The notes beneath the pieces are model-generated. The model made no database searches. It saw only the letters and a program-made list of their open reading frames with translations, and was not told the origin of the DNA. A DNA stretch of 64,000 nt from an uncultured Alphaproteobacteria bacterium (GTDB taxonomy: Bacteria > Pseudomonadota > Alphaproteobacteria > CAAHEQ01 > UBA3637). Made by a program: the position numbers and the translations under genes. Positions 28,201 to 45,344 of this stretch are shown here, piece after piece (the stretch's first letter is position 1; the number at the start of each line of letters is the position of its first letter). Where the stretch lies: positions 44,543 through 108,542 of the forward strand of contig CANPXT010000001.1 of the NCBI GenBank assembly GCA_947586835.1. Reading direction: 5' to 3'.

Positions 28201-28267
28201 TATTAATTGACAAGGCATACATTTTAAATTATACTCGCTCATATTAATATAAAACGGGAGATTAAAG

Positions 28268-30727: not shown

Positions 30728-32054
30728 AAAAGCATTGATTGTAATCAGTATTTTTTTGTTGGCTGTTTTTTCCGATAATTTAAATGAAAAACCACATGCC
30801 TGCATTTGGTTAAAACCCGGCAATTTATTTGAAACCCGCTTTGTATTGTCTTTTATGCAAAAATTAACGGATGAAAATATTTATCCGATTTATTCACCGT
30901 TTTGTGACAAAAACGGTGCTTTTATCATTGCAAATGAAATGCTTCAAACGCCTTTAGTACAAACAATGCCTGTCTTTTTGGTGGATTTCGGTCGATTAAA
31001 ATTTTTCCCGACAAATAACAATCCCCAATATACACATCTTTTTTATTTTAACAAAAAAAATGCTCCTGTATTGCCTGACTTTCTGCAACCATCCCTTTCC
31101 GTTACTTATGTTTCTCCCGATTCTCCCGAAACGGCGGCAAATGAAATTTCCTCATTTATTTTAAAGGATAAATGGTTAAATTTTTACATTTTGGAAAGTA
31201 TGTCAGGTTCCGGATTAGGTAATCAACTGTTTCTTTATGCTGCCGGATTAAGCTACGCCAACCGCTTCCACAAAAAATTTCTGTGGCGTAATCCGGAAAT
31301 TATAACAACTTTTGAGTTGGGTTCACAAGAATTTATCTTATATTATACTCCTTTTACAATGGCGTTGAAAAAAAGATTATCAAACTTATCTAACCGAGCA
31401 AGCTATTCACACAATTATAACCAAAGTTTATATCAACGTTCCGATATTGTTTTAATCGACGGATATCATCAGGCTTATAAAAACATTGAAAACAATGTGG
31501 CTTATCTTCAAAAAAAGCTCAAATTTAAACCGTTGACAGAAAAAGAAAATATAATGTTAGCCCAAAAACTGCAATCACAAAACAGTGTTTGTCTGCATGT
31601 GCGATTGGGCGATTATGTTTCAAACGGGTATCCTAATTTAGTTCGTTCAAACTATTACCAAAATTCAGTCGATTACATTTTAAAACGAATACCTGATCCC
31701 ACGTTTTATGTTTTTTCAAATAATCCGGAAGAAGCCGAAAAGCAATTAAAGTTATCCGTTTCGTTTGAAGTTGTTCGCGTTAATCAACAGAAGGCAGATT
31801 TTAGAGATATGCAGTTGATGAGCTTATGCAAACATAATATAATTGCTAATTCCTCTTTTTCATGGTGGGCTGCACTGTTGAATAAAAATCCCGATAAAAT
31901 TGTCATGTATCCGGATATATGGGATTGGGCAGATGAAAATTGGATAAATTATATGCGCGTGCCGGGGTGGATTGAAATTGACAGCGGTATTATGTATAAT
32001 AAGCAGTTACAAAAATTTATTTATCCGTCATATAAAAAGGAAAAATCTGAATGA
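30693..32054 (+). CDS. GT11-family alpha-1,2-fucosyltransferase-like protein with N-terminal TM anchor plus ~160-aa extension
   Basis: GT11 motifs GLGNQLFLYAAG, HVRLGDY and SSFSWWAALLN in the C-terminal 280 aa. N-terminal hydrophobic helix (ALIVISIFLLAVF). Overlaps the permease end by 35 nt. Confidence 0.75.
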   Translation: MKAATGLIFTIKKALIVISIFLLAVFSDNLNEKPHACIWLKPGNLFETRFVLSFMQKLTDENIYPIYSPFCDKNGAFIIANEMLQTPLVQTMPVFLVDFGRLKFFPTNNNPQYTHLFYFNKKNAPVLPDFLQPSLSVTYVSPDSPETAANEISSFILKDKWLNFYILESMSGSGLGNQLFLYAAGLSYANRFHKKFLWRNPEIITTFELGSQEFILYYTPFTMALKKRLSNLSNRASYSHNYNQSLYQRSDIVLIDGYHQAYKNIENNVAYLQKKLKFKPLTEKENIMLAQKLQSQNSVCLHVRLGDYVSNGYPNLVRSNYYQNSVDYILKRIPDPTFYVFSNNPEEAEKQLKLSVSFEVVRVNQQKADFRDMQLMSLCKHNIIANSSFSWWAALLNKNPDKIVMYPDIWDWADENWINYMRVPGWIEIDSGIMYNKQLQKFIYPSYKKEKSE

Positions 32055-32626
32055 AATATAATAATAAAAAGAAAAAAGAAGAACCGTTTCGTCCGTGTGA
32101 TTATCCCGGCTGTCCGGAAAACGGGCAGTTTCGGGCACCAAAAGACAGAAATTTAAACACTTATTATTGGTTTTGTTTAAAGCATGTGACCGAATATAAT
32201 AAAAATTGGGATTTTTATCAAGGGTTATCCGGTGATGAAATTGAACAGCATATTCAAAATGATATGACTTGGCAACGTCCGACATGGAAACTCGGGCACA
32301 ATCAAACTTTTCGACGTATGACAAATAATTTGCACGATTCATTCGGCTTTTTTAATGAAGAAGAACTCGGCATGAGCGGAAAATATAATCCGCCGCGCAC
32401 TCAAGATACAACAGATAAAAAATTAATTGCCGCCGTTAAATTTTTGGAACTTTCATTTCCGCTTGATTCGACGGAGATGAAAAAACAATTTAAAAAATTG
32501 GCAAAAAAATATCATCCCGATACCAACGGCGGTGATAATAAAAATGAAGCATTGTTTAAAGAGTTACTTGATCATTATCGATATTTAACGGCTTATTTAT
32601 CTTTACATAACAAGGTTAACAAGTAA
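32051..32626 (+). CDS. J-domain (DnaJ-like) protein with N-terminal Cys-rich motif
   Basis: C-terminal J domain (KKYHPDTNGGD…). N-terminal CDYPGC…YYWFCLKHVTEYNKNW motif, a family conserved in alphaproteobacteria. ATGA overlap with the upstream stop. Confidence 0.7.
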   Translation: MKYNNKKKKEEPFRPCDYPGCPENGQFRAPKDRNLNTYYWFCLKHVTEYNKNWDFYQGLSGDEIEQHIQNDMTWQRPTWKLGHNQTFRRMTNNLHDSFGFFNEEELGMSGKYNPPRTQDTTDKKLIAAVKFLELSFPLDSTEMKKQFKKLAKKYHPDTNGGDNKNEALFKELLDHYRYLTAYLSLHNKVNK

Positions 32627-33992
32627 AAGCATTTTTTGCCAACCCTGCCAGTGACGTTTCTTTATAGCCGCTGGACAGATTTTGCCCCGTTTCCAGCATG
32701 GTTTTAATCACGCTATCTAATGTAACTAAATGATTACCGTTGCCGCGAATGGCCAACCGTGCCGCATTAACAGCTTTAACAGCGCTGATGGCATTTCGCT
32801 CGATACAGGGAACTTGCACCAAGCCGCATACGGGATCACACGTCAGCCCCAAGTGATGCTCCATGGCAATTTCTGCCGCATTTTCAATTTGTGCCGTTGA
32901 TCCGCCCATGGCTGCCGTCAATCCCGCAGCTGCCATTGAAGCCGCTACACCGATTTCACCCTGACAACCGACTTCCGCACCCGAAATGGAAGCGTTTGTG
33001 CGATATAAACTGCAAACAGCAGATGCCGTTAAGAGAAATAATCCTTGTCCGATGGCAATATCAAACGGTGATTTTTTTGAGGCAAACCGAGAAAAATAAC
33101 GCAAAACGGCAGGAATAACACCGGCAGATCCCATGGTCGGCGCAGTAACAATTTGTCCGCCACAGGCATTTTCTTCGGCAACGGCAAATGCCCACAAGTT
33201 AATCCAATCAACAATCATTAAAGGATCTTCATCGTTTTGATGAAATTTTTCTTCCAATCGACGATAAATTGTCGGTGCTCGTCGTGATAAATTTAATTCT
33301 CCCGGCAGTTTCCCTTCCGTAACAATGCCTTTTTCAATACAATTATTCATCACATGCAGCAACCGTTCCGTATAACTTTTAACCGCTTTAAACGAATGCA
33401 ATGCTTCCTCGTTTCTGAAAACAACATCGGCAATGCTCATTCTGTTTTCACGGCAAATTTTTAATAATTCAGCACCGGTATTAAAGGGATACGGCACATT
33501 TTTTTGAACGATTTTCGGCTGTTCTTCACCATCACGAATAATAGTCCCGCCACCGATGGAATAATAAACATCTTCATACAAAATCTCTCCGTCAGAATTA
33601 AATACCTGAAACTTTAATCCGTTGGAATGGCGCGGTAAAAATGTTTGTTTTTCCAAAACAATATCGGTATTTTTACGAAAATCAATTTCTTTGACACCGG
33701 CTAATAAAAGCTTATGTGTTTCTTCAATTTTAGCAATATAATTTTGGGATAAATCAATCGTATCAGCCTTTAAGCCCATTAATCCGTAAATGACGGCATT
33801 CGGTGTACCATGACCAATTCCCGTTAACGCCAAAGAACCGTATAAAGTGACTTGAATACGCGTTATATTTTGAAGGCATTTTTTTTCTTTCAGAGAAGTG
33901 ATAAAAGCAAGCGCCGCCCGCATCGGTCCGACCGTATGCGAGCTGGATGGGCCGATTCCGATTGAAAAAACATCAAAATAACTGTAATACAT
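32616..33992 (-). CDS. sdaA: L-serine dehydratase (4Fe-4S, single-chain)
   Basis: 458 aa. Beta domain ([13 protein letters not shown]) and alpha domain with conserved cysteines. Confidence 0.9.
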
Positions 33993-34024
33993 TGTTTATC
34001 CCCAATCAAAATTTTATCTTATGA

Positions 34025-34055
34025 AAAAAAGCACCCGTAAAAAAGTGCTTTTTTA
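34025..34055 (-). terminator. terminator after rpsT
   Basis: AAGCAC-loop-GTGCTT hairpin with T-run on the minus strand. Confidence 0.5.
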
Positions 34056-34079
34056 AATATAATAAAGAACACGTCCGTT

Positions 34080-34340
34080 TTACATTTTTTTAACGGCATT
34101 AGCCAAACGCGAAACTTTTCGAGAAGCATTTTTCTTGTGAATCACTTTTTTACCGGCAGCACGCATTAAAGCCGATTCAGCGGATTTAAAGCTGGATTCG
34201 GCAGCTTCTTTATCACCCGCAGCAATAGCGGCTCTTGTTTTTTTGACGGCTGTTCTGACGGCATTTAAGCGGTCGGAATTAATTTTTGCTCTCTTTGCGT
34301 TGCGTTTGACACGTGTTTTTGCAGATGCAATATTAGCCAT
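34080..34340 (-). CDS. rpsT: 30S ribosomal protein S20
   Basis: 86 aa, MANIASAKTRVKRN… typical of S20. Confidence 0.9.
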   Translation of the reverse strand: MANIASAKTRVKRNAKRAKINSDRLNAVRTAVKKTRAAIAAGDKEAAESSFKSAESALMRAAGKKVIHKKNASRKVSRLANAVKKM

Positions 34341-34437
34341 ATTTTTTTCCTCAACAAAAAATAATTAATTTACAGGATATAATTTATACACCAAAAAAAA
34401 AGAAAAGTCAACCGTTTTTCGAACGAAATATTCATTT

Positions 34438-34797
34438 TTATTCAGACGGATTGCTCATCGTTGTTTCAAACCGCACAACAGCCGGTTTTGATTCTTTTAA
34501 AACAGTAATGACAAGAGAATCTTTTTCTCGGACGAATCGATTATCTTTTTCAACACGCCATCCGAGTGCCGATAAGGCTTGCCGATAATAGGCAGTAATT
34601 TTTCGACCGGTTAATGATTGTCCCGTGGCATTCACGGTTCGAATTTGTCCCGCAGGAGTATCAAAATCAATATTAGCCGTCGGATTCACACTTAACCCCT
34701 CCATTAAAGGTACATCTTCCGTACCGGGCAAAAAAGCATCGTCCGCACACGCGAGAGAAGATAGGAATAAAAAGCTTAAAAAGAGTGCTTTTTTCAT
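34438..34797 (-). CDS. secreted/lipoprotein hypothetical
   Basis: Signal peptide ending in LAC; 119 aa; no known domain. Confidence 0.45.
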   Translation of the reverse strand: MKKALFLSFLFLSSLACADDAFLPGTEDVPLMEGLSVNPTANIDFDTPAGQIRTVNATGQSLTGRKITAYYRQALSALGWRVEKDNRFVREKDSLVITVLKESKPAVVRFETTMSNPSE

Positions 34798-35600
34798 TTT
34801 TTCATTCGATCACTTTCGTTAAAAATATTGTCAACCGCCGGTTTGGAATTAGCTTTTTCCTGATTACCGCCAATTCTTGACTTATCTTGTGTTTTATTAT
34901 CCGATTGTTCCTTTTTTCGGGTTTGTTCCGACTTTTTCGTTTGATCCGTCTGTTCCCCGGCTTTTTCCGCATTCACATTTTGCTCGCCGGGTTGAATCAA
35001 TTCGGGCGGCTCAAAATGCACACCTAATATTTCATCAATTTCTTTATTGATATTTTCCAATATCTCTTTTTTCTCTTTCAATAACTCTTCTTGAGCAGCC
35101 AGATTTCCATTTTTTGTTTGATTCATTTCCGGCAACATCGGTTCAATCGTTTGAGTTGCCAACTTAATTTCATCGGCAGACAGCACCTGCTCTAACGTTA
35201 AAGCTAATTGTTCGGCTTCTTTACTGCCGTTCAATGATGCCAAAAAAGCCCAGCGATAAGCGACAATATCATTTTGCGGTAAGATTAAGCCTTTATTATA
35301 AAGCTGGGCAACACGATATTGTGCTTTAACATGTCCCTGAATAGCGGCAGACAAAAGACAATAACCGGCATTGTTCCGTGTTTCTCCTTTTTCCAGCAAA
35401 AACAATTCGCCTTGATCATATAACTCATCGGGTGACGGCATAAACACACCGCCGTGCGCTTCATCGAATTGACCGTCACACTGAGCGGGAATCATTGTTT
35501 CATTATTATTATCGTCATAACTCCAAAAGACATTTTGTGCCTGAGCCGATGCAATCGGCAATATAGAGAGTGCCATTACTGTTAAAATTATCCGACGCAT
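34794..35600 (-). CDS. secreted Sel1-repeat protein with K/E/Q-rich disordered tail
   Basis: Signal peptide and Sel1-like repeats (…AQYRVAQLYNKG…AYRWAFLA…). Confidence 0.55.
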   Translation of the reverse strand: MRRIILTVMALSILPIASAQAQNVFWSYDDNNNETMIPAQCDGQFDEAHGGVFMPSPDELYDQGELFLLEKGETRNNAGYCLLSAAIQGHVKAQYRVAQLYNKGLILPQNDIVAYRWAFLASLNGSKEAEQLALTLEQVLSADEIKLATQTIEPMLPEMNQTKNGNLAAQEELLKEKKEILENINKEIDEILGVHFEPPELIQPGEQNVNAEKAGEQTDQTKKSEQTRKKEQSDNKTQDKSRIGGNQEKANSKPAVDNIFNESDRMKK

Positions 35601-35682
35601 AAATCCTCCTATTCTTTCTCTTTATTATTCATACATTTTTTTTTAAATTGTGCAAGAATAAAATTCATTTTTCCTTAAAAAA

Positions 35683-37467
35683 CTATTCTTTCCACCATGT
35701 GGAAATATCAGGACCCTTCAATGGTGAAACATTCGGAAAATGTATTTTATCCCAAATCAGAAAACGCAATTCGGGCGAATACCAATGGGGCACGACAAAT
35801 TTTTGTGACAATAAGATTCTGTCTAATGCTTGGGTAGCTGTTATTAATTCTTCCTGCGAATGCGCTTGAATTAACGTTTCGATGACCGAATCGATTAAAT
35901 TGTTTTGAATACCGCTGTAATTCATTGATCCTTCACTGACAGCTGCCTGCGATCCCCAAAAATATCGTTGCTCATTACCGGGCGAAAGAGATTGTCCCCA
36001 AACAGAGACAATCATATCATAATCATACGAATCTAATCGATTTTTGTATTGAATGGCATCAACGCTTCTAACGCGCGCTTGAATTCCCAATCGTCTTAAT
36101 AAGCCGATATACGGTAAAACTACACGTTCCCAAACACCGCTGCTTCCCGATTCGAGTAAAATTTCAAACGTAAACGGTTGCCCGTATTGATTTTGCAAAA
36201 CACCGTTCTTTACATACCATCCGGCTGTATTGAGCAAATTGAGAGCCGTTTGCAGCTTTTGCCGCAATGACTTTGATTTGACAAAAGGCGTTGTGCTTAT
36301 GTCGGGAATGTCATTTTCCGTTACTCCCAATTTTTGCCATAATTTTTTTTCGTTCTCCGTCGGTATTAAGGGCGCTTTCAAATCGGAATTATCAAAAAAG
36401 CTTTCCGTTTGATGATATAAACCGTAAAATAAATTTTGATTCATCCAATGAAAATCAAACACACCGATTAAAGCTTCCCGCACAAAAATATTTTGGAAAA
36501 TTTTACGTCGTAAATTAAAGACAAACCCTTGCATACCGCTCGGAAGGCGGTGTGAAAAAGAAACAGCCTTAATTCGAGGAAATTTATCGGCATCTTTTTG
36601 GAATTGAACCCATTTTTTGGCTTCATTTTCTTGGCGAATATCAAACAAACCGGATTTAAAAGCTTCCATAGCCACGGTGGTATCTCTGAAATATTCATAA
36701 CTGATTTTATCAAAGTTATAAAAACCGCGATTAACATTTAAATCTGATGCCCAATAGTCAGGATTTCGCCGATAAACAATTTTTCTACCGGGTTGAAACG
36801 AATCAATCAAGTACGGACCACTGCCGATCGGAACGGTTAAATCGGTGCGATCAAAATTTTTCGATTGCCAATCTTTTTTGGGAAATATCGGTAATTCACC
36901 CAAAATAAACGGTAATTCCCGATTTTGCGAATCGGCTCGGAAATGAAACACAACCGTTTGCGAATCGGGCGCCGTTACCGATTCCACATCTTGATAATAA
37001 TAGCGATATGTCGGAACACCCTTGGCTTTTAAAGTTTCAAAAGAAAAAATAACATCCTGTGCCAAAATGGGTGAGCCGTCCTGAAAGCGAGCCTTAGGAT
37101 TAATATGAAACACAACGCCTTTCTTATCGGGCAAAATAAAAATACCGTCGGCAATTAAACCGTAAAGCGAAAACGCTTCATCGGCACTTGACTTCATCAA
37201 AGTGTCAAACAAAAGCCCGATACCGGCCGGCGCCATACCGTTAACGGAAAACGGATTAAACGTATCAAAAGAGCCGAACGCACTTTGCCGAAGCGTCCCT
37301 GTTTTAGGCGCTTGAACATTGACATAATCAAATGCTTGAAAATCATCGGCATATTTCGGCTTTCCATGCATGGAAACGGCCGATTGAAACGAATAAGGTT
37401 CAACAGCTCGTGCGGCAAATCCAATCAAAAGAAAAACGAAAGTGAAAAAAATTTTCATTTGACACAC
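35683..37467 (-). CDS. ABC transporter substrate-binding protein, family 5 (peptide/YejA-like), orphan
   Basis: 594 aa, signal peptide, SBP_bac_5 architecture. No permease or ATPase genes adjacent. Confidence 0.8.
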   Translation of the reverse strand: MCQMKIFFTFVFLLIGFAARAVEPYSFQSAVSMHGKPKYADDFQAFDYVNVQAPKTGTLRQSAFGSFDTFNPFSVNGMAPAGIGLLFDTLMKSSADEAFSLYGLIADGIFILPDKKGVVFHINPKARFQDGSPILAQDVIFSFETLKAKGVPTYRYYYQDVESVTAPDSQTVVFHFRADSQNRELPFILGELPIFPKKDWQSKNFDRTDLTVPIGSGPYLIDSFQPGRKIVYRRNPDYWASDLNVNRGFYNFDKISYEYFRDTTVAMEAFKSGLFDIRQENEAKKWVQFQKDADKFPRIKAVSFSHRLPSGMQGFVFNLRRKIFQNIFVREALIGVFDFHWMNQNLFYGLYHQTESFFDNSDLKAPLIPTENEKKLWQKLGVTENDIPDISTTPFVKSKSLRQKLQTALNLLNTAGWYVKNGVLQNQYGQPFTFEILLESGSSGVWERVVLPYIGLLRRLGIQARVRSVDAIQYKNRLDSYDYDMIVSVWGQSLSPGNEQRYFWGSQAAVSEGSMNYSGIQNNLIDSVIETLIQAHSQEELITATQALDRILLSQKFVVPHWYSPELRFLIWDKIHFPNVSPLKGPDISTWWKE

Positions 37468-37469
37468 AT

Positions 37470-37688
37470 TTATTTATTGTCACCGAGTTCAACCGCGTCG
37501 ACGGATATTGAACGGGTGGCGGAGGATAATTTTAACATTTTTTCCATTTGCATTAATTGCGCCGTCATATATTGAAAACCTTGTTTTTGGCGTTTTAAAA
37601 ACAAAATCAAAAGCACAACAACGGTCGTGGCAACACACATATTCCCGAAAATAAGCAAATAAATACCGAGTAAAAATAAGTTTGACAT
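37470..37688 (-). CDS. small single-TM membrane protein
   Basis: 72 aa with one hydrophobic helix, immediately upstream of the SBP gene. Confidence 0.35.
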   Translation of the reverse strand: MSNLFLLGIYLLIFGNMCVATTVVVLLILFLKRQKQGFQYMTAQLMQMEKMLKLSSATRSISVDAVELGDNK

Positions 37689-37777
37689 TTTTTTCCTTTT
37701 GATGGTGAATAAATAACTTTACTTTTTTTTTCGTCTTTACTATACTACAAAAAAATAGTTAAGTAAAGGAAAACAGA

Positions 37778-38731
37778 ATGCAATATTTGGATTTTGAACA
37801 AACAATTGCCGAAATTGATAATCGTATTGAAGAAATTAAACTCAAACTGATTAATGACGAAAAAGGCGCTTCGGAACTGGACAGATTACACGCAAAAAAA
37901 GAAAAAGCTTTAACGGGATTATATAAAAACTTAACGGCTTGGCAAAAATCAGCCGTGGCACGTCATGAAAATCGCCCGCATACCACTGATTATTTAAATG
38001 AAATTTTCACAAATTTTTGTCCGTTAAGCGGCGATCGTAATTTTGCCGACGATCAAGCCATTATCGGCGGGTTTGCCAAACTCGGCAATCGAACGGTTAT
38101 GGTAATCGGCCACGAAAAAGGACACGATACCGAAAGTCGTTTATTACATAACTTCGGTATGGCAAAACCGGAAGGATATCGTAAAGCCATTCGGTTAATG
38201 AAATTGGCTGAACAATTTAATGTACCCGTTATCACGTTGGTTGATACCGCCGGCGCTTTTCCGGGTATGGAAGGAGAAGAACGCGGACAAGGGCAAGCTA
38301 TTGCCGCCGGCACGGAAACGTGTTTAGATTTAAAGGTTCCGCTTATCTCTTGCATTATCGGTGAAGGCGGTTCGGGCGGTGCTATCGCATTGGCTGCCGG
38401 TAACATTGTTTTAATGCTTGAAAACTCAATTTATTCCGTTATCTCTCCCGAAGGGTGTGCTTCTATTTTGTGGAAAGATGCCAAAATGGCGCCCAAAGCG
38501 GCTGAAATTTTGCATTTAACGGCGCAAGATTTACTCAAACTCGGCATTATTGATTCCATTATTACCGAACCGATCGGCGGAGCGCAACGGCATCCCAAAG
38601 AAACCATGGAAAATGTGCGGTTTGCTTTGGAAAAATATTTGACTCAATTGGAAAAATTATCGCCTGATGAATTAAAAACACATCGACATGAGAAATTTTT
38701 AACCATGACGCGGTTAAATGAGGCGGGATAA
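37778..38731 (+). CDS. accA: acetyl-CoA carboxylase carboxyltransferase alpha subunit
   Basis: 317 aa. Classic AccA throughout (…GHEKG…, FGMAKPEGYRKA, GEGGSGGA). Confidence 0.95.
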   Translation: MQYLDFEQTIAEIDNRIEEIKLKLINDEKGASELDRLHAKKEKALTGLYKNLTAWQKSAVARHENRPHTTDYLNEIFTNFCPLSGDRNFADDQAIIGGFAKLGNRTVMVIGHEKGHDTESRLLHNFGMAKPEGYRKAIRLMKLAEQFNVPVITLVDTAGAFPGMEGEERGQGQAIAAGTETCLDLKVPLISCIIGEGGSGGAIALAAGNIVLMLENSIYSVISPEGCASILWKDAKMAPKAAEILHLTAQDLLKLGIIDSIITEPIGGAQRHPKETMENVRFALEKYLTQLEKLSPDELKTHRHEKFLTMTRLNEAG

Positions 38732-38790
38732 TGGAAAAAGTCAAAAGAAAAAAATTAAAGCGTCATAAAAAATTTTTAACGTTTTCTTGC
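38495..38790. repeat. direct repeat copy 1 (accA 3' end + start of fucosyltransferase), ~296 bp
   Basis: Near-identical to 40217-40512 with about 3 mismatches. Confidence 0.85.
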
Positions 38791-39855
38791 TTACTATTCT
38801 TCTTTGCTTGCTTTCTTTCTTCCGCAATTCTCACGATTTTTCTTCTTTTTTATATTTATCCCGCCACACCGGAACAAGCTGCTTTAATTCGGTGGGAACA
38901 GCTGGTTTTGCCGCCGACGAGTGACTATATTTCGGTGTTTGAGGAATTGAAAAACGTGATGAAAAAACACGGGATGACTTTTCGTTTAAAGAACCGCCCG
39001 AAATTGACGGATAATTTAATTTTTGTGGCGCGAGCCGATTATCATGTGCCTTCCCATATAAAAGCACCGGCTTATTTATGGAATGTTGAATCACCGATAA
39101 CCATTCGATTTCCGGCCATCAAGAAAGATGAAGAGCGATATTCTAAAATTTTTACTTATTCCAAGAGATTTACGGATAATAAAAAATATTTTTATGCACC
39201 CGTTCCGTTCCGATATGATAACGCTTTTCCGTATTGTCCTAATCCCGCGCGAAAAACAGTGCTGGTTTCGCAAATTGCCGGATTATATAAATACGGTAAA
39301 AAAAACGAGTTATATTTTTTGCGACAAAAATCAACCGAATGGTATGTACGCAATCATCCCGAAGATTATTTTTTATATGGTAAAGATTGGAAAGATTTCA
39401 AAAAAACATTATCATCGAAAGAGCAAGAAGCTTTTGATCGGGTTTATCATGGATATATTCCTCGAAAATCCGATGCCGTTATAAAAGCAAAATTTATATT
39501 GGCTTATGAAAACGGTATTTTTGACGGATACGTCAGCGAAAAAATTTTTGATGTTATGGCATACGGGGCTGTTCCCGTCTATATCGGCGCACCAGATATT
39601 AAAAATTATGTGCCGGAAAACTGTTTTATTGATAAAAACAAATTTCAAACGGAAGAAGCGCTATATAACTATTTAAAAAATATGACCGATGAGCAATATT
39701 ATGACTATTTGATTTGCGGATCGGAGTATATGTCACGTCCCGTTCATTATAACGATCCGCTGACGGTTTTTCACTTATTGGAAAAAGAGCTTTTTGCGCC
39801 GCGTGAAATTTTCCATCGGTTTTTTCAAAAAATAGAGCACTTGTTTTTTGTTTAG
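38731..39855 (+). CDS. GT10-family alpha-1,3/4-fucosyltransferase-like protein with basic N-terminus and TM anchor
   Basis: C-terminal FucT motif KFILAYENGIFDGYVSEKIFDVMAYGAVPVYIGAP matches H. pylori FutA and eukaryotic FUT. N-terminal MEKVKRKKLKRHKK then a TM helix. ATG overlaps the accA stop. Confidence 0.8.
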   Translation: MEKVKRKKLKRHKKFLTFSCLLFFFACFLSSAILTIFLLFYIYPATPEQAALIRWEQLVLPPTSDYISVFEELKNVMKKHGMTFRLKNRPKLTDNLIFVARADYHVPSHIKAPAYLWNVESPITIRFPAIKKDEERYSKIFTYSKRFTDNKKYFYAPVPFRYDNAFPYCPNPARKTVLVSQIAGLYKYGKKNELYFLRQKSTEWYVRNHPEDYFLYGKDWKDFKKTLSSKEQEAFDRVYHGYIPRKSDAVIKAKFILAYENGIFDGYVSEKIFDVMAYGAVPVYIGAPDIKNYVPENCFIDKNKFQTEEALYNYLKNMTDEQYYDYLICGSEYMSRPVHYNDPLTVFHLLEKELFAPREIFHRFFQKIEHLFFV

Positions 39856-39879
39856 CGAATAATGACCGGTCTGTTTCCC

Positions 39880-39956
39880 CCTATCGGCGGGTGTGGAGCG
39901 GCTTAAACAATGCCGCTCCGCTGTGGGCCGATAGGAGGAAAGTAACGGTTTTTTTT
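39880..39956 (+). terminator. GC-rich nested palindrome plus T8 (terminator-like element after the fucosyltransferase)
   Basis: Outer stem CCTATCGGC/GCCGATAGG, inner stem GGAGCGGC/GCCGCTCC, then TTTTTTTT 13 nt downstream. Confidence 0.4.
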
Positions 39957-39958
39957 AG

Positions 39959-40003
39959 AGTGTTGCACAAATTAAACGTACGATTTTTGCAACACTTTTT
40001 TTA
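39959..40003 (+). terminator. second hairpin terminator
   Basis: AGTGTTGCA-21 nt loop-TGCAACACT followed by T7. Confidence 0.45.
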
Positions 40004-40216
40004 AAATTTGTAAAAAATTTTTATTTTGCCCAAAATAATTGATTTTTCGGCTGTTTTTGGAGGGTGAATTTTGGCATTTTAAGAGCAAAAATCACCCCCG
40101 AATCAGCATTGCATTAAAGGTACGTTTAATTGTATACTGTTTTTATTAACAGCGGAAGTCGAAAAATGACAAAATATGCAAAAAACTAGCAATTAAAACA
40201 AATGGAAAATCAATTG

Positions 40217-40512
40217 CAAAGCGGCTGCAATTTTACATTTAACGGCGCAAGATTTACTCAAACTCGGCATTATTGATTCCATTATTACCGAACCGATCGG
40301 CGGAGCGCAACGGCATCCCAAAGAAACCATGGAAAATGTGCGGTTTGCTTTGGAAAAATATTTGACTCAATTGGAAAAATTATCGCCTGATGAATTAAAA
40401 ACACATCGACATGAGAAATTTTTAACCATGACGCGGTTAAATGAGGCGGGATAATGGAAAAAGCCAAAAGAAAAAAATTAAAGCGTCATAAAAAATTTTT
40501 AACGTTTTCTTG
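40217..40512. repeat. direct repeat copy 2 (duplicated accA 3' fragment + fucT 5' fragment)
   Basis: See copy 1. Followed by a degenerate match (40514-40554) to 39048-39078. Confidence 0.85.
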
Positions 40513-40557
40513 TTTATCATGTGCCTTTCGGTATAAATGCACCGGCTTATTTTTTTA
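40453..40557 (+). pseudogene. truncated, scrambled remnant of the GT10 fucosyltransferase 5' end (34-codon ORF)
   Basis: Begins MEKAKRKKLKRHKKFLTFSC, identical to the intact gene start. Continues in a different frame to a stop. Confidence 0.7.
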
Positions 40558-40576
40558 AGATAACATAAAACGTGCG

Positions 40577-40858
40577 TTAAAAAATGTCTTCAAAATCATC
40601 ATTAAAACAGTTTTTTTTCGGAAATACTACCAGTTCTTTTTCATATTCACTGAGTTTTTTTCGAAAATACGCCAAAATAAAAAACCGAACGGCGGCTGAT
40701 AATTGCATTTTTCCTCGAATATCATCTATTTTCGAACATATTTGATTTAAACTTGCCTTTTCTTTTAAACATATTTTATCCAATGCCCACCACATTTCTT
40801 TTTGTAATCGTATACTGGTTCGGCGATTGTTTACAACAATATTTTTATTTAACAGCAT
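40577..40858 (-). CDS. ribbon-helix-helix (RHH_4-like) DNA-binding protein
   Basis: RRTSIRLQKEMWWALDKIC…ASLNQICSKID…LSAAVRFFILAYF matches the RHH_4 family pattern. Confidence 0.6.
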   Translation of the reverse strand: MLLNKNIVVNNRRTSIRLQKEMWWALDKICLKEKASLNQICSKIDDIRGKMQLSAAVRFFILAYFRKKLSEYEKELVVFPKKNCFNDDFEDIF

Positions 40859-40991
40859 TATTCATCCTTCCGATTTAAATTTACTCACAAAAACCAACTT
40901 TTCTCCCATCAAAATGTTTAACGTTAATCAAACCACATATCAAGCAAAAAATGTTTATATTTAAATTAATTTATTAAAATTGTAATTTATT

Positions 40992-41759
40992 TTAAAACGA
41001 GATGGCGGTAATTTTGGCCGAGTGATTTAAAACAAGAGTAATTTCTTGTGAAAATTTATCATATTGATACAAACTGTTGCGTCCGCTTTTACATGTTGAA
41101 AAAAACAAGCTGTCCCCCGTTTCGTTAAAGCCGATTGCCGTCACATCAAAAGCAATAAATTGTCGCAATTGTCCGATTTTAAAATCTACCCAACGAATCA
41201 TATCATTCGTGTAAACGGCATATTCCGTTTCGTTCGGTGATAAAGCAAAATAAGTAACATTTTCACACACCACTTGACTTTCTTTCATTAATCGCTTTGC
41301 AAAATGTTTTTGCGTATCAATGTAATAAAGTGCACCGCTTTTGGCAAAAAACATCGGCAACAAAGCACCGGAAAACGAATCGCTTAAATGAAACTTTGTG
41401 CGGGCTTTTTTATAAATTAAAATATCTGCCGTTCCTTTCGGATTTAATAAATCGGCACGTAAAAAGGCCAGTTGCGCATGCGGCGTGTTCCAAAGTGCCG
41501 GATAATAGCAATATCCTGATTGCATCATTATCGGCAAAGATTTTTGTTGTTGAAAGTTGGCAAGCGTCCATAAAAAATGCGTTTGCTCACCATCTAACTC
41601 AACGCCCGTAATAACCGTATGATCCGATGAAAATGTTGCAAATGGCGGAATATCTTTCATTAAAACCAAACGTCCGTTTCGCATAACCGCCCAAAGTTGA
41701 TGATTATCATCCGTAAAAAATATGCGATAAAGGGATAAAATTGAATTTGTCATTTGCAA
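40992..41759 (-). CDS. hypothetical protein, possibly beta-propeller-like
   Basis: 255 aa, no signal peptide, no recognised motif. Divergently transcribed from moxR. Confidence 0.45.
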   Translation of the reverse strand: MQMTNSILSLYRIFFTDDNHQLWAVMRNGRLVLMKDIPPFATFSSDHTVITGVELDGEQTHFLWTLANFQQQKSLPIMMQSGYCYYPALWNTPHAQLAFLRADLLNPKGTADILIYKKARTKFHLSDSFSGALLPMFFAKSGALYYIDTQKHFAKRLMKESQVVCENVTYFALSPNETEYAVYTNDMIRWVDFKIGQLRQFIAFDVTAIGFNETGDSLFFSTCKSGRNSLYQYDKFSQEITLVLNHSAKITAISF

Positions 41760-41823
41760 TCCTTATAAAAACAGTATATATTATTTTACATAACATTGCA
41801 ACTTGAAAAACGGAGTATAAAAA

Positions 41824-42783
41824 ATGACTTTATATGAAAGCTTTAAACAACTTGAAAAATATATGAATTCTTGCATTGTCGGACAATCAGATCTTGTAAA
41901 GAAACTCATTATTTCTTTATTGGCAAACGGTAACCTTTTGGTTGAAGGTGCGCCGGGATTAGCTAAAACGAAAGCCATTAAAACATTGGCACATGCCATT
42001 GATGCTAAAGAACAACGTATTCAATTTACGCCTGATTTATTGCCTTCCGATGTCACGGGCAGCGATGTTTTTCGTCCGGAAACAAATCAATTTTATTTTC
42101 AAAAGGGTCCTATTTTCAGCAATCTTGTTTTAGCCGATGAAATCAATCGGGCGCCGGCAAAAGTACAATCCGCCCTGCTCGAAGCCATGGGCGAACGACA
42201 AGTGACCGTAGGGGCAACAACTTATCGTCTGCCTGATTTGTTTATGGTAATGGCCACGCAAAACCCGATTGACAATGAGGGAACATATGTGTTGCCGGAA
42301 GCACAACTTGATCGCTTTTTGCTTTATATAAAAATCGGTTATCCTGATATTGAATCGGAACGAAAAATTTTAAAAATCATTCGTAAAGAAGAGAAAAAAG
42401 AGCCTTTGCCCGAAATTGAAAAAATTACCGAACGAATGATTTTTGCCGCACGTCGGGAAGTATCAAACATTTATATGTCACCCGAAATTGAAGAATATCT
42501 CCTTCAATTGGTAATGGCAACTCGTTTCCCGGCAGCTTACGGCGAAGATTTGGCAAAATATATTGCATTCGGTGTTTCACCACGCGGTACCATTGCTCTT
42601 GATATATGTACGCGTGCCAACGCTTGGCTTAACAATCGCGATTACGTCATGCCTGAGGATATTAAAACTATTGTGTATGATGTGCTCCGTCACCGTGTTT
42701 TGCCCACATTTGAAGCCAAAAGCACCGGCATTACGTCCGATAAGATTTTAGAGTTGCTATTATCTCGAATTCCCATATTGTAA
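41824..42783 (+). CDS. MoxR-family AAA+ ATPase
   Basis: Walker A GAPGLAKT, Walker B LADEINR, sensor motifs. 319 aa. Confidence 0.9.
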   Translation: MTLYESFKQLEKYMNSCIVGQSDLVKKLIISLLANGNLLVEGAPGLAKTKAIKTLAHAIDAKEQRIQFTPDLLPSDVTGSDVFRPETNQFYFQKGPIFSNLVLADEINRAPAKVQSALLEAMGERQVTVGATTYRLPDLFMVMATQNPIDNEGTYVLPEAQLDRFLLYIKIGYPDIESERKILKIIRKEEKKEPLPEIEKITERMIFAARREVSNIYMSPEIEEYLLQLVMATRFPAAYGEDLAKYIAFGVSPRGTIALDICTRANAWLNNRDYVMPEDIKTIVYDVLRHRVLPTFEAKSTGITSDKILELLLSRIPIL

Positions 42784-42792
42784 AGGAAAAAA

Positions 42793-43713
42793 ATGCATTT
42801 TGATTCCCCTACCGTTTCCGCCACTCTTGATGATTTACTGCGTTTAAAAAAACAAGCGCAGCGTTTTGAGTTGAAAGAAACAAATCGACAAGCATATCTC
42901 GGATGGGGACAAACAAAATCACCTTTTAAATCAAAAGGTCTCGACTTTCAAGAAGTGCGAACCTATCAACCCGGCGATGATATTCGTCAGATTGATTGGC
43001 GGGTCACGGCAAAATACGGTAAACCGTTTACCAAACTATATACCGATGAAAAAGAAAGACAAGTTTTTCTCATTTGCGATATGCGAACACGAATGAAGTT
43101 TGCCTCGCGCGGTCGATTTAAATCGATTGTATGCGCATATGCAACAACATTACTCGCATACTTAGCCGCAAATAAATCAGATCGGCTGGGTTTTACGATT
43201 TTAACACCCGAAACGATTGAAACCGCACGTGCTTACGGTTCTCATGAAGTAACGGACGGTTTATTAAAGTTGTTGGTTACGTCATCTGATCCGACAAAAA
43301 TCGAATCGGATCAAATAACATTGCAACAGGCGTTACAAAAGTCAAAACCGCTTATTCGAGCCGGTTCGTTGATATTTATATTAAGCGATTTTTCGGATTG
43401 GTCACCGGCTTGTGAAACAATTGTCCGACAATGGACACAAAAAAGCATTTGCGGGCTGATTCATATTTACGATGAATTGGAAAAACAATTGCCGCGCGGC
43501 ATATTTTCGGTTTCGGACGGAAAAGAAATAAGCGCAATCGATACCAGGAGTCATCATTTTCAAGTCGATTATGCCGACATATTTTTAAAACGCACGGAAG
43601 CCCTTCAAAATTTAGCACGGAATTTTGAAATCGGTTATTTGCCGATTCGTACCGATGAAAATATTATTCCCAAAATCCTGGCTTATTGCATTGGAGAAAA
43701 AAATAATGCCTGA
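42793..43713 (+). CDS. DUF58 (VWA-fold) protein, MoxR partner
   Basis: GLDFQEVRTYQPGDDIRQIDWRVTAKYGKPFTKLY hallmark of DUF58. Confidence 0.85.
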   Translation: MHFDSPTVSATLDDLLRLKKQAQRFELKETNRQAYLGWGQTKSPFKSKGLDFQEVRTYQPGDDIRQIDWRVTAKYGKPFTKLYTDEKERQVFLICDMRTRMKFASRGRFKSIVCAYATTLLAYLAANKSDRLGFTILTPETIETARAYGSHEVTDGLLKLLVTSSDPTKIESDQITLQQALQKSKPLIRAGSLIFILSDFSDWSPACETIVRQWTQKSICGLIHIYDELEKQLPRGIFSVSDGKEISAIDTRSHHFQVDYADIFLKRTEALQNLARNFEIGYLPIRTDENIIPKILAYCIGEKNNA

Positions 43714-44176
43714 TATTGATTTAACACCTTTAAAAGATGTTCATTTGCCGACAGAGCCTTCCCTGTTTCCGCCGGCAACGGGTTGGTGGATTGTTGCAGG
43801 TGTTTTATGTATATTGATAATCGGCAGTTTCTTGTTTCTTTATTTTCTCAAGCGCTCTCCCAAAAGATATGCCTTACGTATTTTAAAATCCATTGAACGA
43901 AACCAAAGTGATTTACCTACCATCGGCGTTGAATTGGGTATATTGCTAAAACGCGTTGCATTGGTGGCTTTTCCGCGGGAAGAAGTTGCCTCGTTAAGCG
44001 ATAAAGAATGGGCCGATTTTTTACTGCAACACGGAAACGGTGCCTTATCTCCGGAACAGGCAAAATTTATTGTATCGGCAGCTTACTTACCGAAACAAAA
44101 AGCAGTTGCAATCGAAACAGAAAAATTATATACTGCTGTTAAAGATTGGATTTACTATGTTTTGAAAAAAGGATAA
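43706..44176 (+). CDS. DUF4381-like membrane protein
   Basis: Start at the ATG at 43706 overlaps the DUF58 stop. N-terminal PDIDLTPL…P…GWW then one TM helix, as in Bat-type operons downstream of DUF58. Confidence 0.55.
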   Translation: MPDIDLTPLKDVHLPTEPSLFPPATGWWIVAGVLCILIIGSFLFLYFLKRSPKRYALRILKSIERNQSDLPTIGVELGILLKRVALVAFPREEVASLSDKEWADFLLQHGNGALSPEQAKFIVSAAYLPKQKAVAIETEKLYTAVKDWIYYVLKKG

Positions 44177-44179
44177 TTT

Positions 44180-44929
44180 ATGGAAAATAATGCGCAAACC
44201 ACAACGGATAATCAAGACACTCAAACCGTTTTACCTTCCCTGGTTGAAGAAACACTTTCTTCCTCAACGGAAAGTCGAGCGGGCGTATCTTTTCTGGTAA
44301 CGGTTAATTATCAATCGTTAAGCGGTAATTTAAAAAGTCGTGATTTTTTAATTCGGCGCATTATTAAGCATCAAAATGAATATTATCTGGACGGTTTGGC
44401 AATGGATGTTAAATCTCCGCGTTTGATTCGTGTCGCACAAATATCGTTTATCAAAGATAAAGCCGCCACAAACGGTTACAGTAATCCTTATCGTTTTTTG
44501 CAAGATGTTTTGGGTGTTGAAATCGATAACAGTCTTTTACCCGAAGATATGTCTGATTTTTCAAAAGCCATTAAAGAAACCGGTGATGAATTAACGGTTT
44601 TAATGTATTTAATTGCCGTTGACGGCATTCGCAGCAGTTCCGAAAGAGAAAAAGTGTTGACCTATGTTAAACGACGCGTTCCTTATTTAAATTATGATGA
44701 ATTGCAAATGAATGATTATTTAATTTCCATGGCACCCGATGAAGATAGTTTCTCCATGGCATTACATCGTGTTATTCGAAAAGGTATTATCGTTATTCAG
44801 CCGCTTATGGAAACAATTTTAGCCGTAATTATGGCAGACGGACAAATACACGAAAAAGAACGAGCCTTATTAGCGCGCATTATTGATACTTTAAAACAAG
44901 CCGGCTATGAGTTTCAATTACCGGAATAA
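44180..44929 (+). CDS. TerB-like domain protein with N-terminal WYL-like region
   Basis: C-terminal duplicated ADG-x-I…E…L motifs (IAVDGIRSSSEREKVL; IMADGQIHEKERALL) typical of TerB. N-terminal RDFLIRRI…EYYLDGLAMD…RLIRVAQISFI resembles the WYL beta-barrel. Confidence 0.45.
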   Translation: MENNAQTTTDNQDTQTVLPSLVEETLSSSTESRAGVSFLVTVNYQSLSGNLKSRDFLIRRIIKHQNEYYLDGLAMDVKSPRLIRVAQISFIKDKAATNGYSNPYRFLQDVLGVEIDNSLLPEDMSDFSKAIKETGDELTVLMYLIAVDGIRSSSEREKVLTYVKRRVPYLNYDELQMNDYLISMAPDEDSFSMALHRVIRKGIIVIQPLMETILAVIMADGQIHEKERALLARIIDTLKQAGYEFQLPE

Positions 44930-45105
44930 GTAATTTTTTATTACTTTCACTAAAACAGAGTTAATCAAGCGGTACAGCTGAACATGTTATACTTTCTTTA
45001 TTTTTCATTTACTTAAATAATTTTTTCATCTCATTTGATTTTTCTGTCGGAACAAACTTTTAAAGCAAAAGAAAAATGTTTTTTTATGCATTTACCATTT
45101 AATGC

Positions 45106-45134
45106 TTGACTTATGCTAAATTTTTTGTTATATT
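45106..45134 (+). promoter_or_regulatory. putative sigma70 promoter of rpmG (TTGACT-17-TATATT)
   Basis: Near-consensus hexamers 43 nt upstream of the ATG. Confidence 0.4.
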
Positions 45135-45176
45135 TTCTTTCCGTAGTTCAATTTTTTTATAAAGTGGTGATTAACA

Positions 45177-45344
45177 ATGGCAAAACCAACAACTGTTGAA
45201 ATTAAATTAGAAAGCACAGCCGGTACGGGTACTTTCTATGTTACAAAAAAGAATCCGCGGACGAAAACCGAAAAGATGAAAGTTCGCAAATATGATAAAA
45301 AAGCCAGAAAGCATGTTGATTTCGTTGAAAAGAAAATCAAGTAA
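45177..45344 (+). CDS. rpmG: 50S ribosomal protein L33 (frame disrupted at an A5 tract 45297-45301 as sequenced; intact with A6)
   Basis: N-terminal 41 codons read [41 protein letters not shown]. The conserved C-terminus [14 protein letters not shown] appears only in the -1 frame after the A-run. Confidence 0.7.

What the first reader, a model, noticed from the sequence alone, without database searches (positions are those of the whole stretch)
38495..40557. accA-linked fucosyltransferase cassette bracketed by 296-bp direct repeats with a decayed second copy
Positions 38495-38790 cover the last ~236 bp of accA plus the first ~60 bp of the downstream GT10 gene. They recur at 40217-40512 with only about 3 mismatches. 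The second copy then jumps to a degenerate match of 39048-39078 (at 40514-40554). This leaves a 34-codon remnant ORF (40453-40557) that begins with the same MEK(V/A)KRKKLKRHKKFLTFSC. The unit 38495-40216 is 1722 bp: accA tail + fucT + 360-bp spacer. It therefore looks tandemly duplicated and then internally deleted. RecA-type recombination between the two repeats would excise the fucosyltransferase precisely and leave accA intact. That would be a plausible high-frequency OFF switch for a surface fucosylation trait, conceptually like the phase variation of Helicobacter fut genes.
Basis: partly seen in the sequence, partly recalled or inferred. Interest (0 to 1): 0.7.

Follow-up and report, generated by a model that had tools for sequence, protein, structure and literature searches.

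The report
Duplication scar beside a fucosyltransferase gene
A gut bacterium carries a real, stably inherited 1.7-kb head-to-tail duplication around its accA-linked fucosyltransferase gene; it looks like a recombination scar at a fast-changing surface-sugar locus, and nothing here shows that it works as an on/off switch.

Summary
The repeat is real. Window 38494-38793 recurs at 40217-40516 (296/300, offset 1723), followed by a 39-nt GT10 fragment (35/39). An independent assembly is 100% identical across it, and Logan contigs break where a 31-mer graph should.

The unit is the accA tail, GT10, a terminator hairpin, and the promoter plus first ~17 codons of a pilin-like gene. It rejoins accA codon 240 inside an 8-nt microhomology (CAAAGCGG), the signature of illegitimate recombination.

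The distal copy is not a decayed copy of the present gene. Its 39-nt piece carries states of another GT10 allele. The intact gene's body is 98.5% identical to that of a relative whose flanking genes are only 81-89% identical, so it is an imported allele.

Relatives show the locus is hypervariable. A (TTAC)n tract in the GT10 5' coding region has 7 or 13 units (in frame) or 14 (frameshifted). Several lineages carry deletion alleles or no GT10. The window strain has lost the tract.

Recombination between the repeats would delete GT10 and leave AccA unchanged, but it is one-way. The scar is shared by a 99.8% sister strain, and no deletion allele was detectable. This is an ordinary mechanism in a moderately interesting locus.

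The parts
37778..38731 (+). accA (acetyl-CoA carboxylase carboxyltransferase alpha subunit), 317 aa, intact
   Evidence: Pfam PF03255, E=5.8e-134. Syntenic in all relatives.
38494..38793 (+). Repeat copy 1: accA codons 240-317 plus the first 63 nt of GT10
   Evidence: 296/300 identical to 40217-40516.
38731..39855 (+). Intact GT10 fucosyltransferase gene, 374 aa. Its start overlaps the accA stop (TAATG), so it is probably co-transcribed and translationally coupled (inferred).
   Evidence: Pfam PF00852, E=3e-14. PDB hits 7yro, FUT9 and H. pylori FucT 2nzw. The motif FILAYENGIFDGYVSEKIF was read from the sequence.
38783..38797 (+). Degenerate remains (TTTC TTGC TTAC) of the (TTAC)n tract that relatives carry at this position
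   Evidence: Alignment. Tract counts are 7, 13 and 14 in L001, L004 and L020.
38996..39860 (+). GT10 body of L001-type allele, recently imported. About 1.2% divergence from L001, against 11-19% in flanking genes.
   Evidence: Fisher P=2e-17 against the accA 5' part.
39864..39950 (+). GC-rich nested (REP-like) hairpin followed by a T-run: terminator of accA-GT10. It is the only copy of this element family in the window.
   Evidence: Fold (z=-6.7 for the spacer as a whole). Family copies lie in the L001 GT-pilin intergenic region.
39950..40165 (+). Conserved upstream module of pilin-like genes: a hairpin plus T-run at 39957-40003, and a promoter-like TTGCAT-N18-TATACT near 40109-40138
   Evidence: 71-84% identical to modules upstream of the L001 and L020 pilin-like genes. 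The promoter assignment is read from the sequence only.
40166..40216 (+). 5' stub (about 17 codons, with an in-frame stop) of a pilin-like gene
   Evidence: Aligns with the start of the L020 482-aa gene (MTNKRKQLKQIENQSQSG...). The prepilin-like N-terminus is only weakly supported (NF007800, E=0.003).
40217..40224 (+). Novel joint: the octamer CAAAGCGG, shared by the pilin-like gene 5' end and accA codons 239-242 (also at 38494-38501)
   Evidence: L020 pilin gene...CAATCGCAAAGCGGGCG. accA: GCCCAAAGCGGCTG. Window: CAATTGCAAAGCGGCTGC.
40217..40516 (+). Repeat copy 2: promoterless accA' tail (40217-40454, one substitution, E243A) plus the GT10 5' 63 nt
40514..40552 (+). 39-nt fragment of GT10 body (equivalent to 39039-39077) from a different, L020-like allele. 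On its left is a 248-nt deletion with TTA microhomology; on its right the rest of GT10 is deleted.
40454..40558 (+). 34-codon remnant ORF (frameshifted after codon 20), presumed non-functional
   Evidence: no Pfam family.
40577..40858 (-). RHH_4 gene, the first gene of the backbone that follows accA directly in GT10-less lineage V
   Evidence: Pfam PF13467. L057 gene order is accA-RHH-253aa-MoxR-DUF58-DUF4381-TerB.

Best explanation
This is a structural scar of illegitimate plus homologous recombination at a hypervariable surface-glycosylation locus. It is not a dedicated genetic device.

Proposed history:
1. An ancestor of this strain had accA-GT10-terminator-promoter-pilin-like gene.
2. A microhomology-mediated unequal exchange (CAAAGCGG) joined codon ~17 of the pilin-like gene back to accA codon 240. 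This created a 1,723-bp tandem duplication.
3. The redundant distal copy was then whittled down by two deletions. One removed 248 nt starting at the former (TTAC)n tract. The other removed everything 3' of GT10 nt 347, as far as the RHH gene.
4. The body of the surviving proximal GT10 was overwritten by homologous recombination with an allele from an L001-like sister species.
5. Patchy gene conversion keeps the two 300-nt repeats about 99% alike.

Shown: the repeat, the joint and its microhomology, the deletion junctions, the allele mosaic, inheritance of the scar, and the locus variability in relatives. Inferred: the order of events, co-transcription of GT10 with accA, and gene conversion.

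The repeats are a passive substrate for RecA-type deletion (one-way loss of GT10, AccA unchanged) or for amplification.
For: - Repeat geometry and uniqueness.
- Identical structure in independent assembly L012, and k-mer break points in Logan contigs.
- The joint lies in an 8-nt microhomology between a pilin-like 5' end and accA.
- The 248-nt deletion starts at the tract site with TTA microhomology.
- GT10 body identity is 98.5% to L001, against SBP5 80.9%, accA 88.8% and GT10 5' 89.5%. L001-L020 GT10 identity (95.4%) equals their genome baseline, so the direction of import was into this strain.
- The 39-nt remnant shares GGT...AAT with L020, and in strain L010 also GTA. Heterogeneity of 4/300 against 4/39 gives P=0.0075.
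- The spacer is only 71-84% like the L001 and L020 modules, so it is not part of the recent import. This favours a native GT10-pilin context.
- No recombinase or IS gene lies in the unit.
Against: - Lineage V has accA followed directly by RHH-253aa-MoxR, the same backbone as downstream of copy 2. That fits equally well a GT10-less ancestor into which the 1.7-kb unit was later inserted.
- No pilin-like gene or module occurs elsewhere in the 64-kb window.
- The divergence of the two repeats (1.3%) resembles that of the imported body from L001 (1.2-1.5%), which would also fit a single event.
- The excess of differences in the remnant between two 99.8% strains (6 in ~100 nt against 1 in ~3,480; P=3e-9) is only loosely explained by gene conversion.
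Confidence: 0.55

Rival explanations
1. One-step re-acquisition. The strain's ancestor had already lost GT10 (accA-remnant-RHH, like lineages V and Y). A donor fragment carrying GT10-terminator-promoter-pilin stub integrated with one end by homology and the other by illegitimate joining at CAAAGCGG in accA. This could be homology-facilitated illegitimate recombination, or merodiploid formation during DNA uptake. The event duplicated the accA tail as a by-product that kept the essential accA intact.
For: - GT10-less backbones with accA directly followed by RHH exist (L057; L018).
- The pilin module, the stub and the REP-like hairpin occur nowhere else in the window, but are typical of the L001/L020 GT10 locus.
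- Repeat divergence is about equal to import divergence.
- Both mechanisms are documented (PMC3240628; PMC3784515).
Against: - The GT10 5' 265 nt and the accA tail of copy 1 are native-type (89-91% to L001), and the spacer is only 71-84% like L001/L020. The donor would therefore have to be an unseen mosaic.
- This scenario needs at least as many steps as duplication plus allele replacement.
Confidence: 0.25
2. Functional loss or amplification switch. The 300-nt repeats are maintained because RecA-mediated recombination between them generates GT10-minus or GT10-amplified subpopulations at useful frequency. This resembles the duplicated H. influenzae type b cap locus with its truncated bexA copy.
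For: - The geometry fits: a functional gene between direct repeats, with the distal copy truncated.
- The recombinant AccA protein is unchanged.
- GT10 is clearly under fluctuating selection in the clade: tract ON/OFF states and independent deletions.
- This strain has lost the tract, so another route to OFF could be favoured.
- The Hib precedent shows 0.1-0.3% capsule loss (PMC6535587).
Against: - Loss would be irreversible.
- The scar is stably inherited in identical form across samples and in a sister strain.
- No deletion or amplification allele was seen. The only accA-stub-RHH contig (L018) is not a product of these repeats.
- Repeat similarity is explained by recency or gene conversion, without invoking selection.
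Confidence: 0.12
3. Assembly artefact or strain-mixture chimera that stitches a GT10-plus strain and a GT10-minus strain into one path.
For: - The samples contain several related strains. One Logan contig (L018) may itself be a k-mer chimera at the only run of 31 nt or more that is identical between lineages (38471-38502).
Against: - The novel joint 40216/40217 has copy-specific bases on both sides (38505 and 38512 differ), so it needs real spanning k-mers.
- The same structure appears in an independent metaSPAdes-style contig (L012) at 100% identity.
- Logan break points fit two copies in one genome.
Confidence: 0.03

Closest known systems
Duplicated cap-b locus of Haemophilus influenzae type b, with a 1.2-kb bexA/IS1016 deletion in one copy (Kroll et al. 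1988, as cited in PMC6535587)
   Same: A tandem duplication of a surface-glycan locus in which one copy is truncated. Recombination between the repeats leaves only the defective copy and abolishes the surface trait.
   Different: - The Hib repeats are 18-kb units bounded by IS1016, and loss is measured at 0.1-0.3%.
- Here the repeats are 300 nt, the joint is a microhomology with no IS, and no loss event has been observed.
- In Hib the truncated gene lies at the bridge. Here the truncated copy is distal.
Simple-sequence contingency loci in glycosyltransferase genes: H. influenzae lic/lgtC tetranucleotide tracts and Helicobacter pylori futA/futB poly-C tracts (own knowledge; PMC4081817 for H. 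pylori SSRs)
   Same: Relatives of this strain carry a (TTAC)n tract in the 5' coding region of the orthologous GT10 gene. It has 7 or 13 units (in frame) and 14 units (frameshift) in near-identical or sister genomes.
   Different: The window strain itself has only a degenerate 3-unit relic, so it cannot switch this way. The organism is an uncultured gut alphaproteobacterium, and the gene is fused to the 3' end of accA.
Microhomology-mediated tandem duplication, homology-facilitated illegitimate recombination, and transformation-induced merodiploidy (PMC3240628; PMC3784515)
   Same: A head-to-tail duplication whose novel joint lies in a short (8-nt) identity between otherwise unrelated genes. 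The duplicated essential gene stays intact.
   Different: - Documented merodiploids in S. pneumoniae are 100-900 kb and use IS-derived repeats.
- Here the unit is 1.7 kb.
- The mechanism here is inferred from sequence only.
Tandem-duplication phase variation of pneumococcal capsule genes (cap3A and others; own knowledge)
   Same: Duplication and excision within a surface-polysaccharide gene region.
   Different: There the duplication itself inactivates the gene and precise excision restores it, so the change is reversible. Here the gene is intact and excision would destroy it.

Membership tests
GT10 (alpha-1,3/4-fucosyltransferase family) | Match to the Pfam Glyco_transf_10 C-terminal domain above the curated cut-off | tested here: met
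   PF00852, 53.5 bits against a cut-off of 23.9, E=3e-14. PDB fucosyltransferase hits with E from 1.8e-12 to 8e-5.
GT10 (alpha-1,3/4-fucosyltransferase family) | Fucosyltransferase activity and acceptor specificity | not testable with these tools
   Only the conserved motif YENG...GYVSEKIFD was seen in the sequence and in alignment A1.
Simple-sequence contingency locus (slipped-strand phase variation) | Uninterrupted short-unit repeat tract within the reading frame or promoter of the window gene | tested here: not met
   The window has TTTC TTGC TTAC only. TRF finds no tract in the window.
Simple-sequence contingency locus (slipped-strand phase variation) | In orthologues, tract length differs between near-identical genomes and shifts the frame | tested here: met
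   L003 against L004: 99.9% identical over 14.9 kb, with 7 against 13 units. L020: 14 units, so the ORF stops after 76 aa.
Tandem duplication by illegitimate (microhomology) recombination | Head-to-tail unit with a single novel joint lying in a short identity between the two parental sites | tested here: met
   CAAAGCGG is shared by the pilin-like 5' end and accA codons 239-242. Offset 1723.
Tandem duplication by illegitimate (microhomology) recombination | Both copies derive from the same ancestral sequence | tested here: inconclusive
   The 300-nt parts are 98.7% alike, but the only comparable body fragment (39 nt) is a different allele. This is explained by later allele replacement, or by insertion instead of duplication.
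Recombination-mediated loss switch (Hib cap type) | Functional gene between direct repeats, with a truncated distal copy, so that the recombinant lacks the function and spares its neighbours | tested here: met
   The in-silico recombinant encodes an identical AccA and only the 34-codon remnant.
Recombination-mediated loss switch (Hib cap type) | Deletion or amplification variants actually present in populations at elevated frequency | not testable with these tools
   A deletion allele produces no new k-mers, because the copy-specific sites are more than 200 nt apart. Assemblies show only the full structure. Reads are not available here.
Mobile cassette (IS, integron or site-specific element) | Recombinase or transposase gene, terminal inverted repeats, or a short target-site duplication | tested here: not met
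   The only long ORF in the unit is GT10. The repeats are 300 nt of host gene. The spacer has no plasmid match, and Rfam finds only a tRNA, elsewhere in the window.

The most novel reading that the evidence does not exclude
In this lineage the SSR switch of the accA-linked fucosyltransferase has been replaced by a loss-and-regain cycle. The 300-nt repeats cause recurrent RecA-mediated deletion of GT10, giving population-level OFF cells with AccA untouched. Inter-species import of GT10 alleles, seen here as a 98.5% identical body, restores or renews the gene. The accA tail would then act as a portable homology arm that makes the cassette exchangeable among gut alphaproteobacterial species.
Probability: 0.12. 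Interest if true: 0.55.

Novelty: new member of a known kind. Interest (0 to 1): 0.35.

Why it matters
The duplication itself is an ordinary product of illegitimate recombination. The locus around it has more value. In a clade of uncultured gut Alphaproteobacteria (rabbit-gut MAGs by their record names), a GT10 fucosyltransferase fused to the 3' end of the essential accA gene behaves as a contingency locus:
- tetranucleotide-tract ON/OFF states;
- repeated independent deletions;
- cross-species allele import;
- this duplication scar.

A second fucosyltransferase (GT11) island lies nearby. Together these suggest strong fluctuating selection, from host immunity, phage or mucus interaction, on fucosylated surface structures in a gut commensal that has never been cultured. 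The locus is also a well-resolved natural example of how an essential gene's 3' end is preserved when a downstream cassette is rearranged.

Tried and rejected
1. Exact-protein look-ups of the window's AccA and GT10 found no record. Relatives were reached through cluster members instead.
2. I tested whether the 39-nt remnant evolved into an intrinsic terminator protecting the convergent RHH gene. The hairpin is weak (-7 kcal/mol, z=-0.16), and its 'substitutions' are simply L020-type allele states. Rejected.
3. I tested whether the inverted repeats 39970-39992 and 40109-40131 form an invertible promoter. The segment between them has the same orientation relative to the downstream gene in every copy. 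Rejected.
4. A scan of JGI metagenome contigs for the novel joint (20-mer) gave 5 hits, all unrelated chance matches.
5. The spacer has no match in plasmids, and Rfam finds no family in it.
6. I asked whether contig L018 (accA-stub-RHH') is the predicted deletion allele. It is not: its accA tail is 11% divergent from both window copies. I tried to establish whether it is a real recombinant by tracing its RHH' gene. The closest homologue with context lies elsewhere in its genome, so this stays unresolved.
7. I asked whether the window's AccA tail is an outlier created by conversion from the pseudo-copy. Tail identity to relatives (about 91%) matches the rest of accA (about 89%). Rejected.
Full report
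**Observation.**
Window 38494-38793 is repeated at 40217-40516. The offset is 1723, and 296 of 300 bases are identical, with mismatches at 38505, 38512, 38741 and 38790. A BLAST search of copy 1 against the whole window finds only these two copies.

The repeat spans the last 238 nt of accA (37778-38731; Pfam ACCA, E=6e-134) and the first 63 nt of the next gene (38731-39855). That gene has a GT10 fucosyltransferase domain (PF00852, E=3e-14), and its closest solved relatives are fucosyltransferases, including H. pylori FucT. The accA stop and the GT10 start overlap (TAATG).

After 40516, copy 2 continues with a 39-nt match to 39039-39077 (35/39). This amounts to a 248-nt internal deletion with TTA shared at the junction. 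All GT10 homology then ends 24 nt before the stop of a convergent RHH_4 gene (40577-40858, minus strand).

**The structure is real and inherited.**
- ENA contig ERZ27249451 NODE_897 (L012) is 100% identical to window 31824-45319, including both repeats.
- Logan contigs from ERR10663692 and ERR10663693 are 100% identical to the window. They stop at 40483, exactly where the last 31-mer containing the copy-specific base 40513 ends.
- A Logan contig from an unrelated run (SRR29273042, L010) is 99.8% identical. It carries the same remnant with the same two deletion junctions, and it stops at 40454, again as expected if a copy-1-type sequence is present in that sample.

So the scar predates the split of at least two strains.

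**What the 'spacer' is.**
The 361 nt between GT10 and copy 2 fold strongly (z=-6.7). They begin with a GC-rich nested hairpin plus T-run (39864-39950). This hairpin belongs to a REP-like family that is clustered in the GT10-downstream intergenic region of relatives and has only this one copy in the window.

The rest (39950-40165) is 71-84% identical to a module found upstream of large Cys-rich genes lying next to GT10 in relatives (L001 485 aa; L020 482 and 509 aa). Their N-termini look prepilin-like, but only weakly so (NF007800, E=0.003).

Window 40166-40216 aligns with the first ~17 codons of such a gene. The novel joint falls in the octamer CAAAGCGG, which is present both in the pilin-like gene (L020...CAATCGCAAAGCGGGCG) and in accA (GCCCAAAGCGGCTG). 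A joint inside a short identity between two unrelated genes is the signature of illegitimate, microhomology-mediated recombination. The unit contains no recombinase or IS gene.

**The two GT10 copies are different alleles.**
| Segment | Window vs relative L001 |
|---|---|
| SBP5 gene | 80.9% |
| accA 5' part | 88.8% |
| accA tail | 90.8% |
| GT10 5' 230 nt | 89.5% |
| GT10 body | 98.5% |

From 38996 to 39850 there are 10 mismatches in 855 nt. The GT10 body compared with the accA 5' part gives P=2e-17.

L001 and L020 differ in GT10 by 4.6%, the same as in their flanking genes. GT10 is therefore native to that clade, and the window strain imported an L001-type body.

The 39-nt fragment in copy 2 lies inside this imported stretch yet differs at 4 sites. 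Three of them (GGT...AAT) are the states of the L020 allele. Strain L010's remnant shares a fourth (GTA). The remnant is thus a relic of another, probably the older resident, GT10 allele rather than a decayed copy of today's gene. The heterogeneity of 4/300 against 4/39 mismatches is significant (P=0.0075).

**The locus in relatives.**
By their record titles, the relatives are uncultured Alphaproteobacteria MAGs: Lapin-032 bin105, Lapin-024 bin64 and CANQKV01. The accA-GT10 adjacency is confined to this clade; more distant GT10 homologues (33-48% identity) are not next to accA.

In the relatives, the GT10 5' coding region holds a (TTAC)n tract:
- 7 units in L001-L003 (367 aa);
- 13 units in L004/L019 (375 aa), which is otherwise 99.9% identical over 14.9 kb;
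- 14 units in L020, where the frame is broken after 76 codons;
- one contig (L006) ends inside the tract.

This is a classic contingency-locus pattern. The window strain retains only TTTC TTGC TTAC at that site, and the 248-nt deletion in its remnant starts exactly there.

GT10 has also been destroyed or is absent several times:
- L007 keeps only about 60 nt at each end.
- L005 and L008 have L001-type accA followed by unrelated sequence.
- L018 has a 93-nt stub.
- Lineage V (L057) has accA followed after 62 nt by RHH-253aa-MoxR-DUF58-DUF4381-TerB. This is the same backbone that follows copy 2 in the window.
- Lineage V also lacks the ABC-transporter/GT11 island at window 28232-32068.

**Most likely history and mechanism.**
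I favour the following sequence (about 0.55):
1. A microhomology-mediated tandem duplication of the 1,723-bp unit arose in an ancestor that had accA-GT10-terminator-promoter-pilin gene.
2. The redundant distal copy decayed through two deletions.
3. The proximal GT10 body was later replaced by an L001-type allele through ordinary homologous recombination.
4. Patchy gene conversion occurred between the repeats.

The spacer's only moderate similarity to the L001 and L020 modules argues that it was not part of the recent import.

The main rival (about 0.25) is a single insertion event into a GT10-less accA-remnant-RHH ancestor, with one homologous and one illegitimate end. This corresponds to homology-facilitated illegitimate recombination or transformation-type merodiploidy (PMC3240628; PMC3784515). 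It is favoured by the V-like backbone, and by the similar divergence of the repeats (1.3%) and of the imported body (1.2-1.5%).

Both accounts make the accA-tail duplication a by-product that keeps the essential accA intact.

**The switch hypothesis.**
A crossover anywhere to the right of 38512 would delete GT10 and the spacer, and would leave an AccA identical in sequence. The geometry resembles the duplicated H. influenzae cap-b locus with its truncated bexA copy, where capsule loss occurs at 0.1-0.3% (PMC6535587).

However, the event would be irreversible, and the scar is stably inherited across samples and strains. Assemblies cannot reveal a deletion allele, because it creates no new k-mers.

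The one accA-stub-RHH contig from the same sample (L018) is not its product. L018 is 100% identical to the window up to 38502 and then 11% divergent, with an L020-clade-like tail and a different RHH gene (53% aa identity). Its switch point lies in the only run of 31 nt or more that is identical between lineages (38471-38502). It may therefore be a k-mer chimera, or it may be a genuine recombinant; I could not decide.

I rate a selected loss switch at about 0.12.

**Unexplained.**
Six of the seven differences between the window and strain L010 over 3,582 nt fall in the ~100-nt GT10 remnant (P=3e-9). Some of them match copy 1 and others match foreign alleles. This suggests repeated small conversion events but does not prove them.

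**Verdict.**
The duplication-then-decay reading is partly right. The OFF-switch reading is unsupported. The mechanism is ordinary. The locus is a moderately interesting new example of a contingency-type glycosyltransferase locus in an uncultured gut symbiont.

Noticed in passing
L001 10023-10050; L004 11004-11055; L020 5935-5990 (equivalent to window 38783-38797): A (TTAC)n tetranucleotide tract sits in the 5' coding region of the orthologous GT10 gene. It has 7, 13 and 14 units; the 14-unit allele is frameshifted. This is a candidate slipped-strand phase-variable fucosyltransferase in uncultured gut Alphaproteobacteria.
   Followed up: yes
window 28232-32068: An island holding an ABC transporter (two genes) and a 453-aa GT11 (PF01531) protein is present in the window and in L001-type genomes but is precisely absent from lineage V (L057). 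A second fucosyltransferase locus is therefore also an indel.
   Followed up: partly
L018 1-2275 (Logan ERR10663692_118280); window 36985-38502: This contig is 100% identical to the window for 1,518 nt. From 38503 on it is 11% divergent: an L020-clade-like accA tail, a 93-nt GT10 stub with TTACTTAC, and a different RHH_4 gene. It is either a real recombinant GT10-minus haplotype or a 31-mer chimera.
   Followed up: partly
window 41735-41764: Logan contigs from three runs (L015-L017) all start at 41735, and L011 ends at 41764. This is a graph branch at the divergent promoter between the 253-aa gene and MoxR. It may be the right-hand border of a strain-variable cassette.
   Followed up: no
window 40454-40552 compared with L010 (SRR29273042): Six of the seven differences between two 99.8%-identical strains lie in the ~100-nt GT10 remnant (P=3e-9). 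This points to local gene conversion or hypermutation of the pseudogene.
   Followed up: partly
window 39884-39931; L001 11105-11800; L020 8829-8877: A family of nested GC-rich palindromes (TCGGCGG - inner hairpin - GCCGA, with variable outer arms) is clustered between GT10 and the pilin-like genes in relatives. It has a single copy in the window.
   Followed up: partly
L001 11839-13296(-); L020 7054-8583(-) and 9172-10620(+): Large Cys-rich proteins (482-509 aa) with a prepilin-like N-terminus (...GRSMVEMLGVLAIIG...; weak NF007800 hit) lie next to GT10 in relatives. Each is preceded by a conserved ~170-nt upstream module. They have no Pfam family.
   Followed up: partly
L007 1982-2134; L005 10955-11081: Two further GT10-less arrangements exist in L001/L020-type genomes. 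L007 keeps only about 60 nt from each end of GT10. L005 and L008 have unrelated sequence running into a REP-like element.
   Followed up: partly
L060 2486-2767: The closest homologue with genomic context (87% identity) of L018's RHH_4 protein sits between DnaJ and the S20 gene, not after accA. RHH_4 genes therefore occupy different places in this neighbourhood in different lineages.
   Followed up: no
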